A stretch of DNA of 64,000 nucleotides from Lactobacillaceae bacterium (GCA_031271345.1 JAISVX010000002.1:44832-108831); one strand, 5' to 3'; positions 14,345-57,401 are shown, counted from the stretch's first letter. Numbers and translations are program-made. Notes: generated by a model not told the origin, from the sequence alone.

Positions 14345-16429
14345 TTACATCTTTTTAATTAAGCCGGAGACTAAATCAAGTTTGTAAAAATCCTTATCTT
14401 TCATTTTTTCATTATATACGCCTGCAGCTTCCAAAGCAAAAATGTTTGGCTGATGGGATGAAAAGTTTCTGGGGAAAGAAACAGAATCGATATTTTTCAT
14501 CAAATATTCTTTTGTCGTTTTCGCATCTTTAACCGTATTTTTTATCAAGCCGTTTCTATTTGAAAACATATTTGTAAAAGCGAAGATTGCGTATATTGCG
14601 GCAATAATCAGCAGTGCCGACAAAGTGTTTAAGACGCTTAGAAGTATTGCGAATGCGAATATTATGAGTAAGATGGCAAATGTTCTGTAGAGATATTTAA
14701 TCCATCTTTGGCTGAACCTTTTAGTCAAGAGCCAAATAGATAAGGCAATTGCGATGTCGGAAAAAACCATAATAGCCATATTATAAGGCGGACTGTATGC
14801 GAGCATTGCTATTCCAACCTGAGACAACAACAGCATAGCCGCGCTGAAAATAATATATCCAAAGTTTATTTTTAACAGAAAATTTCTGACTCTGTCTTTG
14901 GTGTCTTTTTCAATCAGCGCATAAGCTCTGTTTATTTTTAAGGCGTTTGCCCTGTCGAAAACGATTACGGATTCTTTGTTTACAAATAAATTATTTACCG
15001 CAAGCCTTTCATTTTTGCTCAAACTTCCAAGGCTGTCCGTAAGTTTTATGAGCGAGTTTTCTTTTATATCGATGATATTTCTTTTATAAAGCTCTAAAAT
15101 AAAAGAGCCGAAAGATATTTTATCAAAAATATTTTTAGTTAAATATCTTAATATCGGTCCGTTTCTTTGGATTGAATATTTAGAGTTTGTTTTGTTATCG
15201 GATATAAATATCCAAGATACGAAATATGCGCCGACAATCGCCAGAAGTCCTAAAATTGTTAAAATTATGTCGCCGTAATCATCAATAATCCAGTCAATTT
15301 TTTTATTTACGTCAACAGGAATAAAGTTTTTGCTGTCAATGGATACGATTATATCCATGCTTTCGCCGACAAAAACGGGTCTTGTGCTTATAAAGCCCAA
15401 AATATTTTCGTTGTCTCTGATATATCTGGCGCTGCTCATGTCAATGCCGTTTGTGCTGTTGATAAAAGCCGTTCTGCCCAAATCAGGAACATTTCCGGGC
15501 ATTCGCAGAATTGCTCCGACGCGGGCAACAATAAGGTTCCAGTTTTTGCCGGTTATATTCCAGTAAAACTCGCGGAAAGTATCATAATCAACAACTTGTC
15601 TGTCAACGATATATTCAAAATCATAAGTATAAACTCCCGGCTCCAAAACATAATCATTTTTGGGTGATAAGATTAACAAGTTTCCCACTTCATCAATTTT
15701 ATACTCAATCTCGCTGCCGTTAATTTTAACGCTCACAAGATTGACATTTAGGTTGTATTTATCTCCCGCGCGCGAATATGAATATCTTGGAAGAGATTTT
15801 GATAAGCCGTTTTTTAACTTTTCTCCGTTTGCGACCACAACGATTTTTTCGCTGACCTTGGTTAAGCCGGTGGGAAGGATTTCAATTTCGCTCATTAAAT
15901 AAGGTATATGCTCAATTGCGGGGACGAGAACTTTTGTTCCTCCGGGCAGGGTTGCATTGACAGTTTGATAGTCTGGCTTTATCCATTGTTCCTGCTGGAC
16001 GGATACGTTGGCGGGCTGGCTGTCCGTGCTTAATTTGTTTTGACTCTGAGTTTGAGGTTTTCCGCTGACGCGCGCAAGGGCATTTTCATAAACCTGCTGG
16101 AAAAATCCTTTCTCTTCCCGCTTCATCATCTCTATATATTCGTCGCTGGCGACAACATCGGTAGAGCTTACTTCTTTAGCCTCGTCCAAGGCTATTTCTG
16201 TTACAACCGCGCGTTTAATTCTTTTTTCCACATAGCTGTCATATTCGTCGGGCGTTTCAAATTCAGGCTCTTTGACTTTGCGTTTTCCTTGTTCTTTTTG
16301 TTTTCTCGCCTGATTAACCTGCATTTCCTGCAGCCCCGTAACGCTTCTTACGGCGCTATAGGAATTTGTGACAAAAAAGAATGTGGAAATGAAACAAAGT
16401 GTAAAAAAAAGTTTTCTCATAAAATCCAT
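14345..16429 (-). CDS. DUF2207-like membrane protein
   Basis: Signal peptide; periplasmic domain with EFYWNITGKNW; C-terminal TM bundle. Confidence 0.7.
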   Translation of the reverse strand: MDFMRKLFFTLCFISTFFFVTNSYSAVRSVTGLQEMQVNQARKQKEQGKRKVKEPEFETPDEYDSYVEKRIKRAVVTEIALDEAKEVSSTDVVASDEYIEMMKREEKGFFQQVYENALARVSGKPQTQSQNKLSTDSQPANVSVQQEQWIKPDYQTVNATLPGGTKVLVPAIEHIPYLMSEIEILPTGLTKVSEKIVVVANGEKLKNGLSKSLPRYSYSRAGDKYNLNVNLVSVKINGSEIEYKIDEVGNLLILSPKNDYVLEPGVYTYDFEYIVDRQVVDYDTFREFYWNITGKNWNLIVARVGAILRMPGNVPDLGRTAFINSTNGIDMSSARYIRDNENILGFISTRPVFVGESMDIIVSIDSKNFIPVDVNKKIDWIIDDYGDIILTILGLLAIVGAYFVSWIFISDNKTNSKYSIQRNGPILRYLTKNIFDKISFGSFILELYKRNIIDIKENSLIKLTDSLGSLSKNERLAVNNLFVNKESVIVFDRANALKINRAYALIEKDTKDRVRNFLLKINFGYIIFSAAMLLLSQVGIAMLAYSPPYNMAIMVFSDIAIALSIWLLTKRFSQRWIKYLYRTFAILLIIFAFAILLSVLNTLSALLIIAAIYAIFAFTNMFSNRNGLIKNTVKDAKTTKEYLMKNIDSVSFPRNFSSHQPNIFALEAAGVYNEKMKDKDFYKLDLVSGLIKKM

Positions 16430-31553: not shown

Positions 31554-31629
31554 GGTCCCATCGTCTAGAGGCCTAGGACACGTCCCTTTCACGGATGAAA
31601 CACGAGTTCGAATCTCGTTGGGATCACCA
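31554..31629 (+). tRNA. tRNA-Glu(TTC)
   Basis: Acceptor GGTCCCA/TGGGATC, anticodon arm CGTCC-CTTTCAC-GGATG, GTTCGAATC T loop, encoded CCA. Confidence 0.96.
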
Positions 31630-31914: not shown

Positions 31915-32058
31915 TTATTTGCAAGGAGCAACGATTTCAATAATTGAAATACCTAAGAAAGAGTGGTTTTCGCAAGTTTTTTGGCTGCCGATGTATCCAC
32001 GAGAACCTGTGCAAGCTGCAAGAGCGAATAAAACTGCAAGAATAGCTAATTTTTTCAT
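31915..32058 (-). CDS. small lipoprotein (47 aa, MKKLAILAVLFALAAC...VAPCK)
   Basis: Manual translation; AAGGA RBS; LAAC lipobox; terminator downstream. Confidence 0.8.
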   Translation of the reverse strand: MKKLAILAVLFALAACTGSRGYIGSQKTCENHSFLGISIIEIVAPCK

Positions 32059-54363: not shown

Positions 54364-55576
54364 TGTTTTGATATGCTAGATAAAGTTGTTTACTTGCGGT
54401 AACCATACAAGATTTGTTGGATTTTTTCAAACCATTACAAAAGTTATTAGCATCTTCTTTTGAAAAACCGACGATTTTTGGGTTATATACCAGAGCGGCG
54501 TTGACTTCTTCTATTTCTACTTCTATTTTTTTATCCGCGGCGTTTTTTAAGTTTTGTTTTTGAATGCTTTTCGCATAATTTTTTGCTTTGGCATAGTTGG
54601 AAAAAGAACCTATTTTTACATCCCATAAAGCGGTATTAATATTTTCTTCTTCAATTGCGGCGTTGTCAGCAATGACAGTTTCTTCAAGCTTTGAGCTTTG
54701 CGCAAGCATAACTTGTTCGTAGTCGGGCTTTGGAGTCAAGATTATCTCGGCAAGCATTGTTTCTTTATCTTTTATTCCCGCCAGCTCGTTTAATGATTTG
54801 TCCATCATCGCAATTACTTTTTTGTCCCTGTTATTTTGAGTGTCGTGTCCCATTGTAACGGCGATAACTCTTTTTCCATCTCTTTGAGCGGAAGTCGCGA
54901 TATTGTATCCGGCTGCTGCTGTAAAACCGGTTTTAAGACCGTCGGATTCTTCAAATTTTTTCAAGGCGGTGTTGTGGGTTTTGTGGGTCAACCCATTGTA
55001 AGTAAAAGTTCTTAGCGAAAACAATTCGTAATATTGGGGAAAATGGTTATGAAGAGCCGCGGCTAATACAGCCATGTCTTTCGCGGTTGTTTTTTGTTTT
55101 CTGTTCGGCAGGCCTGAAGCGTTTTTAAATGTTGTATTTTTCATTCCCAGTTCTTGAGCGACGGTTGTCATCGCTTCGGCAAACTTTGCCTCATCTTTTC
55201 CAATTCCTTCGGCTAACACGGTAGCGCAGTCATTTGCAGATTTTACAATCAGAGCCTTGATGGCGTCTTCAACTTTAATCTTTGAACCTGGTTTTAACCC
55301 AAGTCTTGAAGGCGAGCGGTTTGCGGCGGTTCGAGATACCGTAAGCTCATCGTCAATCCCTATGCTTCCGTTTTCAATGGCGGTAAAGGCGATGTATAAT
55401 GTCATCATTTTTGTGAGCGAGGCGGGGTATCTTAATTCGTCGGCATTATCTTCGAGCAAAACCTCTCCTGTTTCAATATCAAGAACAATTGAAGAGATTG
55501 TTCGGGCTTCTGCATTGTTGATGAAACAAAAGCCGATTATAAGAATTAATGAAAATATCCTGCTTAAACTGCTCAT
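54356..55576 (-). CDS. D-Ala-D-Ala carboxypeptidase (S11) with C-terminal SPOR-like domain
   Basis: SLTK, SAN and KTG motifs; WDVKIGSF...A..FC..LK....C SPOR-like tail. Confidence 0.9.
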   Translation of the reverse strand: MSSLSRIFSLILIIGFCFINNAEARTISSIVLDIETGEVLLEDNADELRYPASLTKMMTLYIAFTAIENGSIGIDDELTVSRTAANRSPSRLGLKPGSKIKVEDAIKALIVKSANDCATVLAEGIGKDEAKFAEAMTTVAQELGMKNTTFKNASGLPNRKQKTTAKDMAVLAAALHNHFPQYYELFSLRTFTYNGLTHKTHNTALKKFEESDGLKTGFTAAAGYNIATSAQRDGKRVIAVTMGHDTQNNRDKKVIAMMDKSLNELAGIKDKETMLAEIILTPKPDYEQVMLAQSSKLEETVIADNAAIEEENINTALWDVKIGSFSNYAKAKNYAKSIQKQNLKNAADKKIEVEIEEVNAALVYNPKIVGFSKEDANNFCNGLKKSNKSCMVTASKQLYLAYQNNE

Positions 55577-55709
55577 ATCTTTCCTTATGATGGATTTTCT
55601 TTGTAAATATTAATTCTAATACTCAAAAGAAAACAAAAAGTTAAGAAAAGAATTATTATAAAAATTATCTTGACTTTATGTTATATTATTTGTAATAAAC
55701 CAGTGTTAC

Positions 55710-55786
55710 GGCGGAAGTAGCTCAGTTGGTAGAGCCCTGGTTTGTGGTACCAGTTGTCGCGGGTTCGAGCCCCGTCTTTCGCCCCA
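55710..55786 (+). tRNA. tRNA-His(GTG) with encoded G-1 and C73
   Basis: G + GCGGAAG/CTTTCGC acceptor, CTGGT-TTGTGGT-ACCAG anticodon arm, GGTTCGAG, CCA. Confidence 0.96.
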
Positions 55787-55995
55787 TTAAAAAGCTCACC
55801 TTTACGGTGAGTTTTTTAATGGGGCGAAAGCCAATCAGACTTCGCGTAAGCCTGTCTTCTTGGAATGGGCTGCACAATAATTTCTAAGTTCATTTCAGTT
55901 GCTGCCGTTTTCTTCATTTACTAAGAATTTATTGCTCTTGCAGACAAAAAATTGACTGATTCAAATTTTTACTTGGCGAGCTTCTTTCGCCAATA
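55776..55995. repeat. tRNA-anchored multi-hairpin element, copy 2
   Basis: 25-bp stem 55776-55830 including tRNA 3' end; hairpin 55831-55863; conserved core 55879-55930; further hairpins to about 55995. Confidence 0.65.
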
Positions 55996-56099
55996 AATCA
56001 ATATGGAAGCGATAAGTTTTATCTGGACAATAGTTCAGTTTGGTGCTATTTGTAGCACTAACAAATTGAATTATAATGTAAATTAAAAAAACAAATTAT

Positions 56100-57401
56100 A
56101 TGTTGGTAAAAAATCGACTTAACTCTTTCTATGATTGCATAATTGTAGGAACGGGTCCCGCGGGATTAATATTGGCATATTCTTTATCGCAAAGCGGTAA
56201 GAGCATACTGATGGTTGACGCGGGTAAAGACAGGAAAAAGGATATATGTCCTTTAGAAAAAGAAGTTGGAAATCTCTACGAAAATCCTCTTAAAGGCTGG
56301 GAAAGCGTGTCTTTTGAAAAAGGGTGCAAATATGCGCCCAAATGCGGTGCTTGTCCAACAATAGCGGGTTTTGGAGGTTGTTTGGCTCCCTACGTCTCTG
56401 CAAAGCTTTGTTTTCCTCCCTCTGGTCAAAGGCTGTTGTCAATTCTGGGCGAAGAAAATGTGTATCTCTCGGCAAAGAAAGCCTGGAATATATACTGTCA
56501 TTTTGCCGAGGTTAATCTGCCTTATCCCGAGTGTGACGAAAATAATGATGAAAAGCAGAGGATTAAGGAACTCTCCGAGCTTGCTGGCTTTCAGGTTTTT
56601 GAACACCCGGCGCATGTCGCGGGCGAAGATGAAATGAACAGATTCTCGAAAAACATTAAGAACTATTTGCTGAATAATGTCGATGTGGTGCTGGACTGCA
56701 AAATCGATTTGCTGTCGGACTTAAATTGGCGGGACAGTATTCTTAACGTTTGCGGAAACCTGGTAAGTTTTGACAAAGTTGTTTTGGCGACAGGCAGGTA
56801 TGGGCATAAAGAAATGACCGGCTTTCTAAAAAGTATTGATATGCTTTCGGAAGAAGCGGATTATGCTTTTGGGGAGAGGATGATTATGCCGAAAAAATAC
56901 CTTTGGCCTATCGGGAAACATTATCCCGATTTTAAGCTGAAGTGGGAGAACGAACATTTCAAGCTCAGAACCTTCTGTTTTAACGGAGACATTAACGGCG
57001 GCCGCTTGAAATATATGAACTATGGCGGCTACACGAATGTTGACGGCATCGTCGCAAAAGACTATCCCGGGGATAGCTTCTTCGGCGAAGGTTACGGCAA
57101 TTTTGCTTTGCTCGCCAAATGTAAGAGCGACATGCCCGCGGAAATGGTTTACCGTCAGTTTCATGAAGTTATGTATAATCTCATTGCCGGCATCAATGGC
57201 GTTGAAGATTATGAAATAGCTGCGGAAACGATGCACAGCGCCGTAGAGGTCGAAGACGTCTGGGGAAAGATGAAAACGGACAACGGTTTTTGGGTTAAAC
57301 ACAATGTCGCGGTTATCGGGGATGCCAGCGGAATTGCAATGGGTATTGTATCGTCTATGATTATGGGTGTTTATATCGCGGAAGAAATGAAAGAAGCTTG
57401 A
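56100..57401 (+). CDS. FAD-dependent oxidoreductase (COG2509-like)
   Basis: IIVGTGPAG, Cys cluster, VVLATGR.G, RTFC, NFALL, IGDASG. Confidence 0.75.
   Translation: MLVKNRLNSFYDCIIVGTGPAGLILAYSLSQSGKSILMVDAGKDRKKDICPLEKEVGNLYENPLKGWESVSFEKGCKYAPKCGACPTIAGFGGCLAPYVSAKLCFPPSGQRLLSILGEENVYLSAKKAWNIYCHFAEVNLPYPECDENNDEKQRIKELSELAGFQVFEHPAHVAGEDEMNRFSKNIKNYLLNNVDVVLDCKIDLLSDLNWRDSILNVCGNLVSFDKVVLATGRYGHKEMTGFLKSIDMLSEEADYAFGERMIMPKKYLWPIGKHYPDFKLKWENEHFKLRTFCFNGDINGGRLKYMNYGGYTNVDGIVAKDYPGDSFFGEGYGNFALLAKCKSDMPAEMVYRQFHEVMYNLIAGINGVEDYEIAAETMHSAVEVEDVWGKMKTDNGFWVKHNVAVIGDASGIAMGIVSSMIMGVYIAEEMKEA

What the first reader, a model, noticed from the sequence alone, without database searches (positions are those of the whole stretch)
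55776..55995. Second copy of the tRNA-anchored element (after tRNA-His), with arm rewritten to match tRNA-His
Seen: CTTTCGCCCCATTAAAAAGCTCACC-TTTAC-GGTGAGTTTTTTAATGGGGCGAAAG is a 25-bp stem (one G:U) whose outer 11 bp are the tRNA-His acceptor 3' strand plus CCA and its exact complement. Then come hairpin 2 (CCAA..AGAC...GTCT..TTGG), the core TAAGTTCA-N7-TGCTGCCG-T-TTTCTTCATTTACTAA, and more hairpins. Versus copy 1 the core blocks match 7/8, 8/8 and 14/16 with the same 7-nt spacer, while the closing stem differs in sequence but still pairs. Both copies also contain TCTTGCAGA and GACTGA. Inference: in RNA this arm could compete with acceptor-stem folding; in DNA it would form a cruciform over a classic integration hotspot.
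Basis: partly seen in the sequence, partly recalled or inferred. Interest (0 to 1): 0.8.

Follow-up and report, generated by a model that had tools for sequence, protein, structure and literature searches.

The report
Flipped RtT-like unit behind tRNA-His
The long hairpin after this histidine tRNA gene is its terminator joined to an upside-down, worn copy of a folded ~170-base repeat unit that trails many tRNA genes in these gut bacteria and resembles the poorly understood RtT repeats of E. coli.

Summary
The 25-bp palindrome is real: tRNA-His nt 55776-55786 plus a 14-bp terminator arm pair with 55806-55830. It is not a tRNA-His-specific device. Window 55980-55870 on the MINUS strand matches a covariance model, built only from 16 units of other genomes, at 77.9 bits, E 1.8e-18. 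The trailer is therefore a 'type-C' member of a family of ~170-180-nt structured units. These units follow (sometimes precede) tRNA genes in gut Alphaproteobacteria MAGs. Each starts with the complement, and ends with a copy, of its own tRNA's 3' end. Here the scaffold between the two tRNA-derived arms is flipped, as in 2 of 39 type-C hits in relatives. The design and some short motifs match E. coli RtT/rttR repeats, but Rfam RF00391 does not score the units. The scaffolds covary strongly, so a folded single strand, most likely RNA, is under selection. Same-genus relatives have the same tRNA-His end but no unit and no palindrome. The proposed role in tRNA-His folding or as a cruciform is therefore unsupported. 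Verdict: a new variant of a known but unexplained kind.

The parts
55711..55786 (+). tRNA-His(GUG) gene with encoded G-1 and CCA
   Evidence: ARAGORN; Rfam tRNA 61.4 bits
55776..55830 (.). 25-bp palindrome: left arm 55776-55800, loop 55801-55805, right arm 55806-55830
   Evidence: sequence; 25 consecutive pairs in the RNA fold; inverted self-match
55787..55819 (.). Two-way intrinsic terminator core (A-tract, 6-bp G+C stem, T-tract) shared by tRNA-His and the flipped unit
   Evidence: terminator-like site 55811..55795 on the minus strand; the + strand T-run 55812-55817 is read
55820..55830 (+). Proximal arm TGGGGCGAAAG: exact complement of tRNA-His nt 66-76 (the antisense arm A' of the unit, or the reverse of its terminal sense copy after the flip)
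   Evidence: inverted copy at +33; same position as A' in standard units
55831..55869 (-).
   Evidence: aligned to HMM positions ~140-175
55870..55980 (-). Type-C scaffold: CUC/GAG helix, A-tract hairpin, GUCUGCAAGAGC, long bulged hairpin
   Evidence: CM R1 77.9 bits, E 1.8e-18, model 31-143 of 184; HMM E 3.6e-16; BLAST E 2.7e-14 to a G001 unit
55984..55993 (+). Distal arm CTTTCGCCAA: degenerate direct copy of the tRNA-His acceptor 3' strand
   Evidence: cognate direct-copy score 9.0, rank 1 of 37; same layout in the flipped units of G003 and G075

Best explanation
The feature is the two-way intrinsic terminator of tRNA-His abutted by a flipped, partly eroded unit of an RtT-like family.

Shown:
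- In this 1.5-Mb gut alphaproteobacterial genome and its relatives, many tRNA genes are followed by ~170-180-nt units.
- The standard order is: tRNA, palindromic terminator, antisense copy of the tRNA 3' half (A'B'), short loop, sense copy of the T-stem 5' half plus TTCGA (B), a conserved multi-helix scaffold (at least types A, B and C), then a sense copy of the tRNA from T-loop nt ~58 to CCA (A), often with its own terminator.
- The arms track the resident tRNA. The scaffolds covary like folded RNA.
- At tRNA-His the type-C scaffold lies on the opposite strand between the two arms. The 25-bp palindrome is therefore the 14-bp terminator arm plus pairing of the real tRNA end with the unit's proximal arm.

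Inferred:
- In the standard orientation, units are transcribed as tRNA trailers by read-through.
- They fold so that A':A, with the T-stem, makes a tRNA-like acceptor/T helix ending in CCA. tRNA-processing enzymes then cut them out as small RNAs, as reported for rtT RNA of E. coli tyrT.
- Units multiply, swap and flip by recombination at the tRNA-derived repeats and palindromes.
- The His unit, being flipped, lacking B'/B and having a worn distal arm, is most likely a dead copy, and its palindrome is a by-product.
For: Identity and strand:
- CM R1 was built from 16 type-C units of other genomes. It hits window 55980-55870 (-) at 77.9 bits, E 1.8e-18.
- An HMM of 18 foreign units gives E 3.6e-16 and runs into CTTTCGCCCCATT.
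- BLAST from a G001 unit gives 77% identity, E 2.7e-14.

Family:
- Exact 17-nt copies of the tRNA end lie 153-168 nt downstream of 8 of 37 tRNAs.
- Cognate-specific direct copies are found for 13 of 37 tRNAs.
- Type A occurs in 30 loci, all alphaproteobacterial or unclassified proteobacterial MAGs by their record titles. In 23 of 34 matches a tRNA lies upstream.
- Among those 23 units, the A arm equals the tRNA at 19 of 19 nt in 14, and the B arm at 10 of 10 nt in 16.
- A':A duplexes are cognate-specific (-11.9 vs -9.5 kcal/mol, 0 of 5000 permutations).

Structure:
- Type C: 96.9% of cells paired against 76.8% in shuffles, 27 of 36 pairs with double changes, 0 of 500 shuffles reach this, slid controls 37-46% (MAFFT alignment, RNAalifold structure).
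- Type A: 85.4% against 72.1%, 15 of 23 pairs, 0 of 500.
- By eye: GNRA loops and a tandem G.A.

Flip:
- G003 tRNA-Arg(CCG) and the second unit at G075 tRNA-Ser(GCU) show A' - reversed scaffold - A.
- Orientation tally of 39 type-C hits: 24 downstream same strand, 5 upstream same strand, 2 downstream opposite strand, 8 with no tRNA within 450 nt.

RtT link:
- The E. coli 178-nt unit ends in the tRNA-Tyr 3' end.
- It shares AAGGTTCGACT, CCAGCGAGAG and GCGCAGCGCnGAGTAATCC with type A. The first and last lie at equivalent places; CCAGCGAGAG lies 11 nt (E. coli) against 4 nt (type A) after GTTCGACT.
- The Rfam structure closes with an A':A helix.
- That rtT RNA comes from one repeat unit of tyrT is stated in PMC3318445 (passage seen).
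Against: - No expression data: no RNA run was listed, so transcription, strand and ends are unknown.
- A strong terminator stands between each tRNA and its unit, and type C carries an internal terminator-like A-tract/T-tract hairpin. Both argue against simple read-through.
- G:U pairs are rare in type C (about 9 of 576 cells). That would also fit a DNA-level or two-strand constraint.
- Rfam RF00391 does not score the units even at E <= 10, and the type-A HMM does not hit the E. coli RtT repeats. Homology with RtT therefore rests on design and short motifs.
- A' complementarity beyond CCA is weak in most units of this genome: only 2 of 37 pass, and palindromes reach >= 10 nt into the tRNA in 6 of 37 cognate cases against 1.5% of non-cognate ones.
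- No promoter-like site was found upstream of the flipped unit. That scan also missed the tRNA-His promoter, so it is insensitive.
Confidence: 0.6

Rival explanations
1. The units are protein-less, non-autonomous mobile elements. A structured scaffold inserts into the T-loop (after nt ~58) or the D-loop (after nt ~20) of tRNA gene sequence. The flanking sense and antisense tRNA pieces are templated from the target, for example by fold-back or template-switch synthesis at two palindromes, the terminator and the T arm. The His unit is one insertion that later flipped and decayed.
For: - Turnover at one tRNA. Behind tRNA-His there is type C in G008 and G014, another type in G013, G015 and G003, and nothing in 13 of 18 relatives by eye.
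- At tRNA-Lys(UUU), G000 has type A. G001 and G002 have type B next to the tRNA, and G002 also has a type-A remnant farther out.
- Tandem units with a period of ~173-182 nt.
- The same scaffold stands beside different tRNAs within one genome, with rewritten arms.
- Type-C scaffolds lie after the D-loop of 5' partial copies upstream of tRNA-Val (G000) and tRNA-Arg (G002).
- 8 of 39 hits have no tRNA nearby.
Against: - The complete (99.8%) genome has no reverse transcriptase, Y1 transposase, IS110 or TnpB gene. It has only two Xer-like integrases and one island integrase.
- There are no terminal inverted repeats or fixed target duplication.
- Units at the same tRNA in different species look vertically inherited with compensatory changes.
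- The arms stay identical to the tRNA, which suggests constraint or gene conversion rather than one-off copying.
Confidence: 0.2
2. The arm is a cis-acting device of tRNA-His. In RNA the 25-bp helix competes with acceptor-stem folding and tunes maturation. In DNA it extrudes as a cruciform that marks an integration hotspot.
For: If read-through occurs, the lowest-energy fold of tRNA plus trailer sequesters the acceptor 3' strand in the 25-bp helix. tRNA loci in this genome are integration hotspots (tRNA-Trp, tRNA-Thr).
Against: - The outer right arm lies beyond the T-run, so terminated transcripts lack it.
- G001 and G002 (same genus, identical tRNA-His 3' end) have neither unit nor complement.
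- The arm is explained by the unit's general design.
- Nothing is integrated at tRNA-His: the flanks are a D-Ala-D-Ala carboxypeptidase and an FAD oxidoreductase.
Confidence: 0.07
3. The flipped unit is still a gene. A minus-strand small RNA starts near 55996 and ends at the shared terminator. Its ends (GGCGAAAG...CUUUCGCC-CCA) form a tRNA-His-like acceptor stem, including the G-1:C73 pair, that serves as a handle for RNase P, the CCA enzyme or HisRS.
For: - The minus-strand fold is far more stable than shuffles (z -6.79).
- The scaffold helices are intact with compensatory changes relative to the model.
- The terminator works in the minus direction by the simple scan.
- An 8-bp acceptor-like pairing is possible (read).
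Against: - No promoter-like site lies upstream.
- The T-stem 3' half and the B'/B hairpin are missing.
- In the lowest-energy fold the 3' copy is locked in the terminator helix and the 5' arm pairs locally.
- The unit is absent from same-genus relatives.
Confidence: 0.08
4. The unit is the scar (attL/attR with a P-arm remnant) of a tRNA-targeting integrative island that lost its genes. The conserved sequence is integrase-binding DNA, not RNA.
For: Direct repeats of tRNA 3' parts flank true islands here. tRNA-Trp has repeats at +12886, +13062 and +16182, with a 625-aa integrase. tRNA-Thr(UGU) has a repeat at +4528 around methylase genes.
Against: - The scaffold interrupts the T-loop of the repeat rather than lying beside it.
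- Compensatory pair changes, GNRA loops and strand-specific G:U pairs.
- The attR of the Trp island has no scaffold.
- No integrase is associated with the units.
Confidence: 0.05

Closest known systems
RtT RNA / rttR repeats of the E. coli tyrT-tyrV operon (Rfam RF00391)
   Same: - A ~175-180-nt unit directly behind a tRNA gene, repeated in tandem.
- Each unit ends with ~19 nt of the tRNA's 3' end through CCA.
- An upstream antisense segment pairs with that copy as the closing helix.
- Shared short motifs: AAGGTTCGACT, CCAGCGAGAG and GCGCAGCGCnGAGTAATCC.
- In E. coli one unit yields a processed RNA (PMC3318445, passage seen, citing Bosl and Kersten 1991). Its function is called unknown in bioRxiv 10.1101/2024.07.17.603846 (passage seen).
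   Different: - Not detected by RF00391, nor does the type-A HMM find RtT.
- The units here are each preceded by an intrinsic terminator.
- They carry a B'/B hairpin, come in several unrelated scaffolds, and serve at least 13 different tRNAs in one genome.
- They also occur upstream of tRNAs, in D-loop-split 5' copies.
- The window copy is flipped.
Displaced tRNA gene fragments at integrative islands (attL/attR; sublocation classes of Williams 2002, recalled)
   Same: Direct repeats of the tRNA 3' part starting in the T-loop; tandem arrays at one tRNA; the newest copy lies nearest the tRNA.
   Different: The element is only ~150 nt with no genes or integrase, and shows RNA-type covariation. 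The repeat is split by the scaffold and is accompanied by an antisense copy.
TnpB / IS200-IS605 right-end (omega) RNAs (recalled)
   Same: A conserved structured scaffold followed at its 3' end by ~17-20 nt that equal the flanking target, with a fixed motif (TTCGA) left of the insertion point.
   Different: The genome has no tnpB or tnpA. An intact target stands 150 nt away. An antisense arm is present.
tRNA-like 3' handles: tmRNA, bacterial YrlA, viral tRNA-like structures, plant mitochondrial t-elements
   Same: An acceptor/T-stem-like helix ending in NCCA that could recruit RNase P, 3' trimming enzymes or the CCA enzyme.
   Different: Here the handle copies the neighbouring tRNA exactly and differs from locus to locus. 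The large domain sits inside the T-loop.

Membership tests
RtT RNA (RF00391) | Scores at or above the Rfam gathering threshold (45 bits) | tested here: not met
   The window at gathering gives only two tRNAs. Fourteen unit loci at E <= 1 and L010, L044, L095 at E <= 10 give no RtT row. The E. coli control gives 133-137 bits four times.
RtT RNA (RF00391) | Unit lies directly behind a tRNA gene on the same strand | tested here: not met
   In the window copy the scaffold is on the opposite strand. In the family it is met: 24 of 39 type-C hits, and 23 of 34 type-A matches have a tRNA upstream.
RtT RNA (RF00391) | Unit ends with a ~19-nt copy of the tRNA 3' end through CCA | tested here: inconclusive
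   The window has an 11-nt exact complement proximally and a 10-nt degenerate direct copy distally. In the family: 8 of 37 exact 17-mers, and 14 of 23 at 19 of 19 nt.
RtT RNA (RF00391) | Closing helix between a 5' antisense segment and the 3' tRNA copy | tested here: met
   Cognate A':A duplexes are stronger than non-cognate ones, 0 of 5000 permutations. The Rfam RtT consensus pairs GGGGAAGG with CCUUCCCC.
RtT RNA (RF00391) | Tandem repetition with a period of ~178 nt | tested here: met
   Family: periods of 173-182 nt in L063, L071, L083, L089, and 175 nt in G002. The window holds a single unit.
RtT RNA (RF00391) | Released as a stable RNA by processing of the tRNA transcript | not testable with these tools
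   No RNA run was listed.
Intrinsic (rho-independent) terminator | G+C-rich stem-loop followed by a T-run | tested here: met
   Site 55811..55795 with tail CTTTTT on the minus strand. The + strand stem GCTCACC/GGTGAGT followed by TTTTTT is read.
tRNA-targeting integrative island (att scar) | Integrase or cargo genes between the tRNA and the displaced 3' fragment | tested here: not met
   There are 209 nt between tRNA-His and the distal arm and no ORF family. The four Phage_integrase matches in the genome (one below the cut-off) lie elsewhere. Flanking genes are housekeeping.
IS200/IS605-TnpB omega RNA | tnpB or tnpA gene in the element or genome | tested here: not met
   PF07282 gives only a 22-bit sub-threshold match in a 68-aa frame. 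PF01797 gives none.
Retroelement (group II intron class C, retron) | Reverse transcriptase gene; intron or msr RNA families | tested here: not met
   PF00078 gives none in a 99.8% complete genome. No Rfam intron or retron hit.
Small self-cleaving ribozymes (hammerhead and others) | Match to the Rfam ribozyme models; CUGAUGA/GAAA core | tested here: not met
   No ribozyme family at E <= 1. Type A has CCGAUGAG with C in place of the U of the hammerhead core (that this U is essential is recalled; sequence read).

The most novel reading that the evidence does not exclude
The units are a diversified superfamily of RtT-like RNAs. Interchangeable, GNRA-rich scaffolds are grafted into the T-loop (or D-loop) of a tRNA-derived acceptor/T 'handle' that is kept identical to the neighbouring tRNA. 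This would be a general bacterial way of making tRNA-tagged small RNAs that are cut out, CCA-maintained or even aminoacylated by the tRNA machinery. Alternatively it is a protein-free RNA-structured element that spreads between tRNA loci by copying its arms from the target. The flips between the arms could be a reversible on/off switch.
Probability: 0.3. Interest if true: 0.8.

Novelty: new variant of a known kind. Interest (0 to 1): 0.55.

Why it matters
RtT repeats have been known behind E. coli tyrT for decades without a mechanism. This lineage has several unrelated scaffolds with the same tRNA-matched arms, at a third or more of all tRNA genes. They show clear covariation, upstream D-loop versions and in-place flips. 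That makes it a natural comparative system for asking what such tRNA-trailing units do and how their arms are kept matched to the tRNA. For annotation, it shows that long palindromes and duplicated tRNA ends at tRNA loci need not be integration scars.

Tried and rejected
- Expression: no RNA holder was listed for window 55500-56400.
- Rfam: nothing but tRNA in the window or in 14 unit loci. RF00391 does not score three unit loci at E <= 10.
- Enzymes sought in the own genome: TnpB domain (sub-threshold only), reverse transcriptase, Y1 transposase, IS110 DEDD. None found, so the guide-RNA, retroelement and IS readings were dropped.
- Hammerhead idea (CGAAAG...GAUGAG in type A): dropped. The motif is a helix with a tandem G.A that covaries to Watson-Crick pairs.
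- Glu-trailer membership: pairwise tests, HMM and CM with filters off gave only weak or palindrome-driven matches.
- The type-A HMM against E. coli tyrT hit only the reverse complement of the tRNA ends, E ~0.01.
- Promoter scan: nothing upstream of the flipped unit.
- The 33-aa minus-strand ORF 55816..55917 lies inside covarying helices and was not pursued.
- Literature: full-text searches found no description of these units. Bosl and Kersten 1991 is not held.
- Earlier notes of this scan, by place and by sequence, gave nothing.

Full report
**1. The observation**

tRNA-His(GUG) lies at 55711-55786 and tRNA-Glu(UUC) at 31554-31629. Directly after the encoded CCA come:
- an A-tract, a 6-bp G+C stem, a 5-nt loop, the return stem and a T-tract;
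- then TGGGGCGAAAG (55820-55830), the exact complement of the last 11 nt of the tRNA.

Folded as + strand RNA, this gives 25 consecutive pairs with one G:U (z -8.05, 0 of 200 shuffles fold as well). BLAST of the trailer against the whole 1.5-Mb genome returns only itself and its own palindrome. The stem is real and far beyond chance.

The claimed similarity to the tRNA-Glu trailer is weak. The best local alignment scores 27, which 22 of 1000 dinucleotide-preserving shuffles reach.

**2. A genome-wide pattern**

ARAGORN finds 37 tRNA genes.
- For 8 of them an exact copy of the last 17 nt lies 153-168 nt downstream. Two more have copies with 2-3 mismatches. tRNA-Trp and tRNA-Thr(UGU) have further copies kilobases away.
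- With the universal CCA removed, a cognate-specific direct copy is detectable behind 13 of 37 tRNAs, tRNA-His included.

The stretches between the two copies share one architecture:
- a palindromic terminator;
- a more or less degenerate reverse complement of the tRNA 3' half (A'B');
- a purine-rich or GNRA loop;
- a sense copy of the T-stem 5' half plus TTCGA (B);
- a conserved scaffold;
- the sense copy from T-loop nt ~58 to CCA (A), often with a second terminator.

The trailer palindrome reaches 10 nt or more into the tRNA in 6 of 37 cognate cases, against 1.5% of non-cognate pairings. A':A duplexes in 36 type-A units are cognate-specific (0 of 5000 permutations).

**3. What sits behind tRNA-His**

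In relatives of the same family, tRNA-His is followed by standard-orientation units of different scaffold types. BLAST showed that window 55883-55989 matches the G008 and G014 His units, and a G001 unit, on the opposite strand (E 2.7e-14, 77% identity).

Two models built without any sequence of this genome confirm it:
- A profile HMM of 18 type-C units hits C1:100814-100649 (-), which is window 55983-55818, at E 3.6e-16. The alignment runs into CTTTCGCCCCATT.
- A covariance model of 16 units hits 55980-55870 (-) at 77.9 bits, E 1.8e-18.

TCTTGCAGA is the reverse of the invariant GUCUGCAAGAGC.

The layout is: proximal antisense arm (55820-55830), reversed scaffold, distal degenerate sense arm CTTTCGCCAA (55984-55993). 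The same layout occurs at G003 tRNA-Arg(CCG) and in the second unit at G075 tRNA-Ser(GCU). Among 39 type-C hits in 29 relatives' loci:
- 24 are downstream on the same strand;
- 5 are upstream on the same strand;
- 2 are downstream on the opposite strand;
- 8 have no tRNA within 450 nt.

The simplest reading is an in-place flip of the scaffold between the tRNA-derived inverted repeats. I cannot tell whether the perfect proximal arm is the original A' or the reversed terminal copy.

**4. The tRNA-Glu trailer**

Neither model finds it in genome or window searches.
- Taken alone it gives 0.7 bits to the HMM; 2 of 300 shuffles reach that.
- With CM filters off, it gives palindromic-hairpin matches on both strands and a 3-bit fragment.
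- Against a true type-C unit of tRNA-Glu(UUC) from G090, the score is reached by 68 of 1000 shuffles.

The pieces lie on the minus strand in a plausible order, and a degenerate complement of the tRNA-Glu end follows the terminator. A decayed flipped unit is therefore possible, roughly even odds, but it is not shown.

**5. Folded single strands under selection**

Type C, on a sequence-only MAFFT alignment with the RNAalifold structure:
- 96.9% of 576 cells pair, against 76.8% in shuffles;
- 27 of 36 pairs show changes on both sides;
- 0 of 500 shuffles reach any of the five measures;
- slid controls give 37-46%.

One helix joins the B segment (GGG) to the CCC of the tRNA copy, which reconstitutes the T stem around the scaffold.

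Type A, on 36 units with a hand-set structure of 23 pairs:
- 85.4% paired, against 72.1% in shuffles;
- 15 pairs with double changes;
- 0 of 500 shuffles on four of the five measures, 19 of 500 on further pair types.

By eye there are GNRA tetraloops, a tandem G.A that alternates with Watson-Crick pairs, and a conserved U.G in B'/B. These point to RNA on the tRNA's strand. The scarcity of G:U in type C leaves room for a DNA-level constraint.

**6. Distribution and dynamics**

- A strict type-A pattern finds 30 loci in the species-representative collection. By their record titles all are alphaproteobacterial or unclassified proteobacterial MAGs, many from gut samples (human, ruminant, chicken, rabbit). 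In 23 of 34 matches a tRNA of ten different amino-acid specificities stands upstream.
- In those 23, the A arm equals the tRNA at 19 of 19 nt in 14, and the B arm at 10 of 10 nt in 16. This holds even where the same tRNA differs between species.
- Type C is found by BLAST in 43 of 81 genomes of the family, and by CM in 3 of 100 genomes of other families of the class.
- tRNA-His carries type C in 2 of 18 relatives' loci. A 14-nt direct copy is present in 3 of 18.
- The two same-genus genomes have the identical tRNA end but no unit.
- At tRNA-Lys(UUU), G000 has type A. G001 and G002 have type B next to the tRNA, and G002 keeps a type-A remnant farther out.
- Tandem units are common.
- Type-C scaffolds also sit after D-loop nt ~20 of 5' partial copies upstream of tRNA-Val (G000) and tRNA-Arg(CCU) (G002).
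- The genome lacks reverse transcriptase, TnpB, Y1 and IS110 genes.

**7. Comparison with what is known**

I fetched E. coli K-12 rttR.
- The 178-nt unit behind tyrV ends in the tRNA-Tyr 3' end.
- It contains GGGGAAGGA, antisense to that end, which Rfam pairs with it.
- It shares AAGGTTCGACT, CCAGCGAGAG and GCGCAGCGCnGAGTAATCC with type A.
- Even so, RF00391 scores none of the units here, and the type-A HMM does not find RtT.

I therefore file the family as RtT-like in design, not as a demonstrated member. That rtT RNA comes from one repeat unit is stated in PMC3318445 (passage). That its mode of action is unknown is stated in bioRxiv 10.1101/2024.07.17.603846 (passage). Five full-text searches found no description of the units reported here.

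**8. Verdict**

- The stem is real.
- The element is real and recurrent, but it was read on the wrong strand.
- The His copy is a flipped, eroded type-C unit, and its palindrome is a by-product.
- 'Copy 1' is unproven.
- The family is a rich new variant of an old, unexplained kind.

Noticed in passing
G000 C1:5250-5404 (outside the window, upstream of tRNA-Val(GAC)): A copy of tRNA-Val nt 1-20 (to the D-loop) is followed by a type-C scaffold (HMM E 3.3e-16; CM 88.2 bits) and then the real tRNA. G002 has the same design upstream of tRNA-Arg(CCU). Five of 39 type-C hits in relatives are upstream on the same strand.
   Followed up: partly
G000 C3:763-17000 (L023): tRNA-Trp carries a tandem array. 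First comes a 12.9-kb island with a 625-aa DUF6538/phage-integrase protein, then a displaced 3' fragment and a type-A unit. A 3.1-kb islet encoding an ApeA-like HEPN protein follows, and then a third degenerate fragment.
   Followed up: partly
G000 C5:21600-26226 (L024): tRNA-Thr(UGU) is followed by a unit, then ~4.3 kb with two N6/N4 DNA methylase genes and a 500-aa unknown. This stretch is closed by an exact repeat running from the anticodon loop through the terminator. No integrase is present.
   Followed up: partly
G000 C2:404104-404277 and C2:92374-92502: Two further type-C scaffold matches (CM E 1.4e-16 and 3.6e-7) have no tRNA gene nearby. The first lies ~1.8 kb from a 320-aa integrase-family gene.
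   Followed up: no
whole genome G000: In about half of the tRNA genes (18 of 37, two mismatches allowed) the terminator palindrome extends over the encoded CCA (..CCA-A-tract-stem-T-tract-TGG..). ARAGORN reports no tmRNA gene in this 99.8% complete genome.
   Followed up: partly
window 14466-14539 (-): A weak CM R1 match (13.2 bits, E 0.071) aligns only the tRNA-like ends of the model.
   Followed up: no
window 31915-32058 (-): A 47-aa ORF with no Pfam family lies just beyond the tRNA-Glu trailer.
   Followed up: no
L127 (G003, tRNA-Arg(CCG)): A flipped type-C unit is followed at once by a standard type-A unit behind the same tRNA. Different scaffold types can therefore stack in one array.
   Followed up: no
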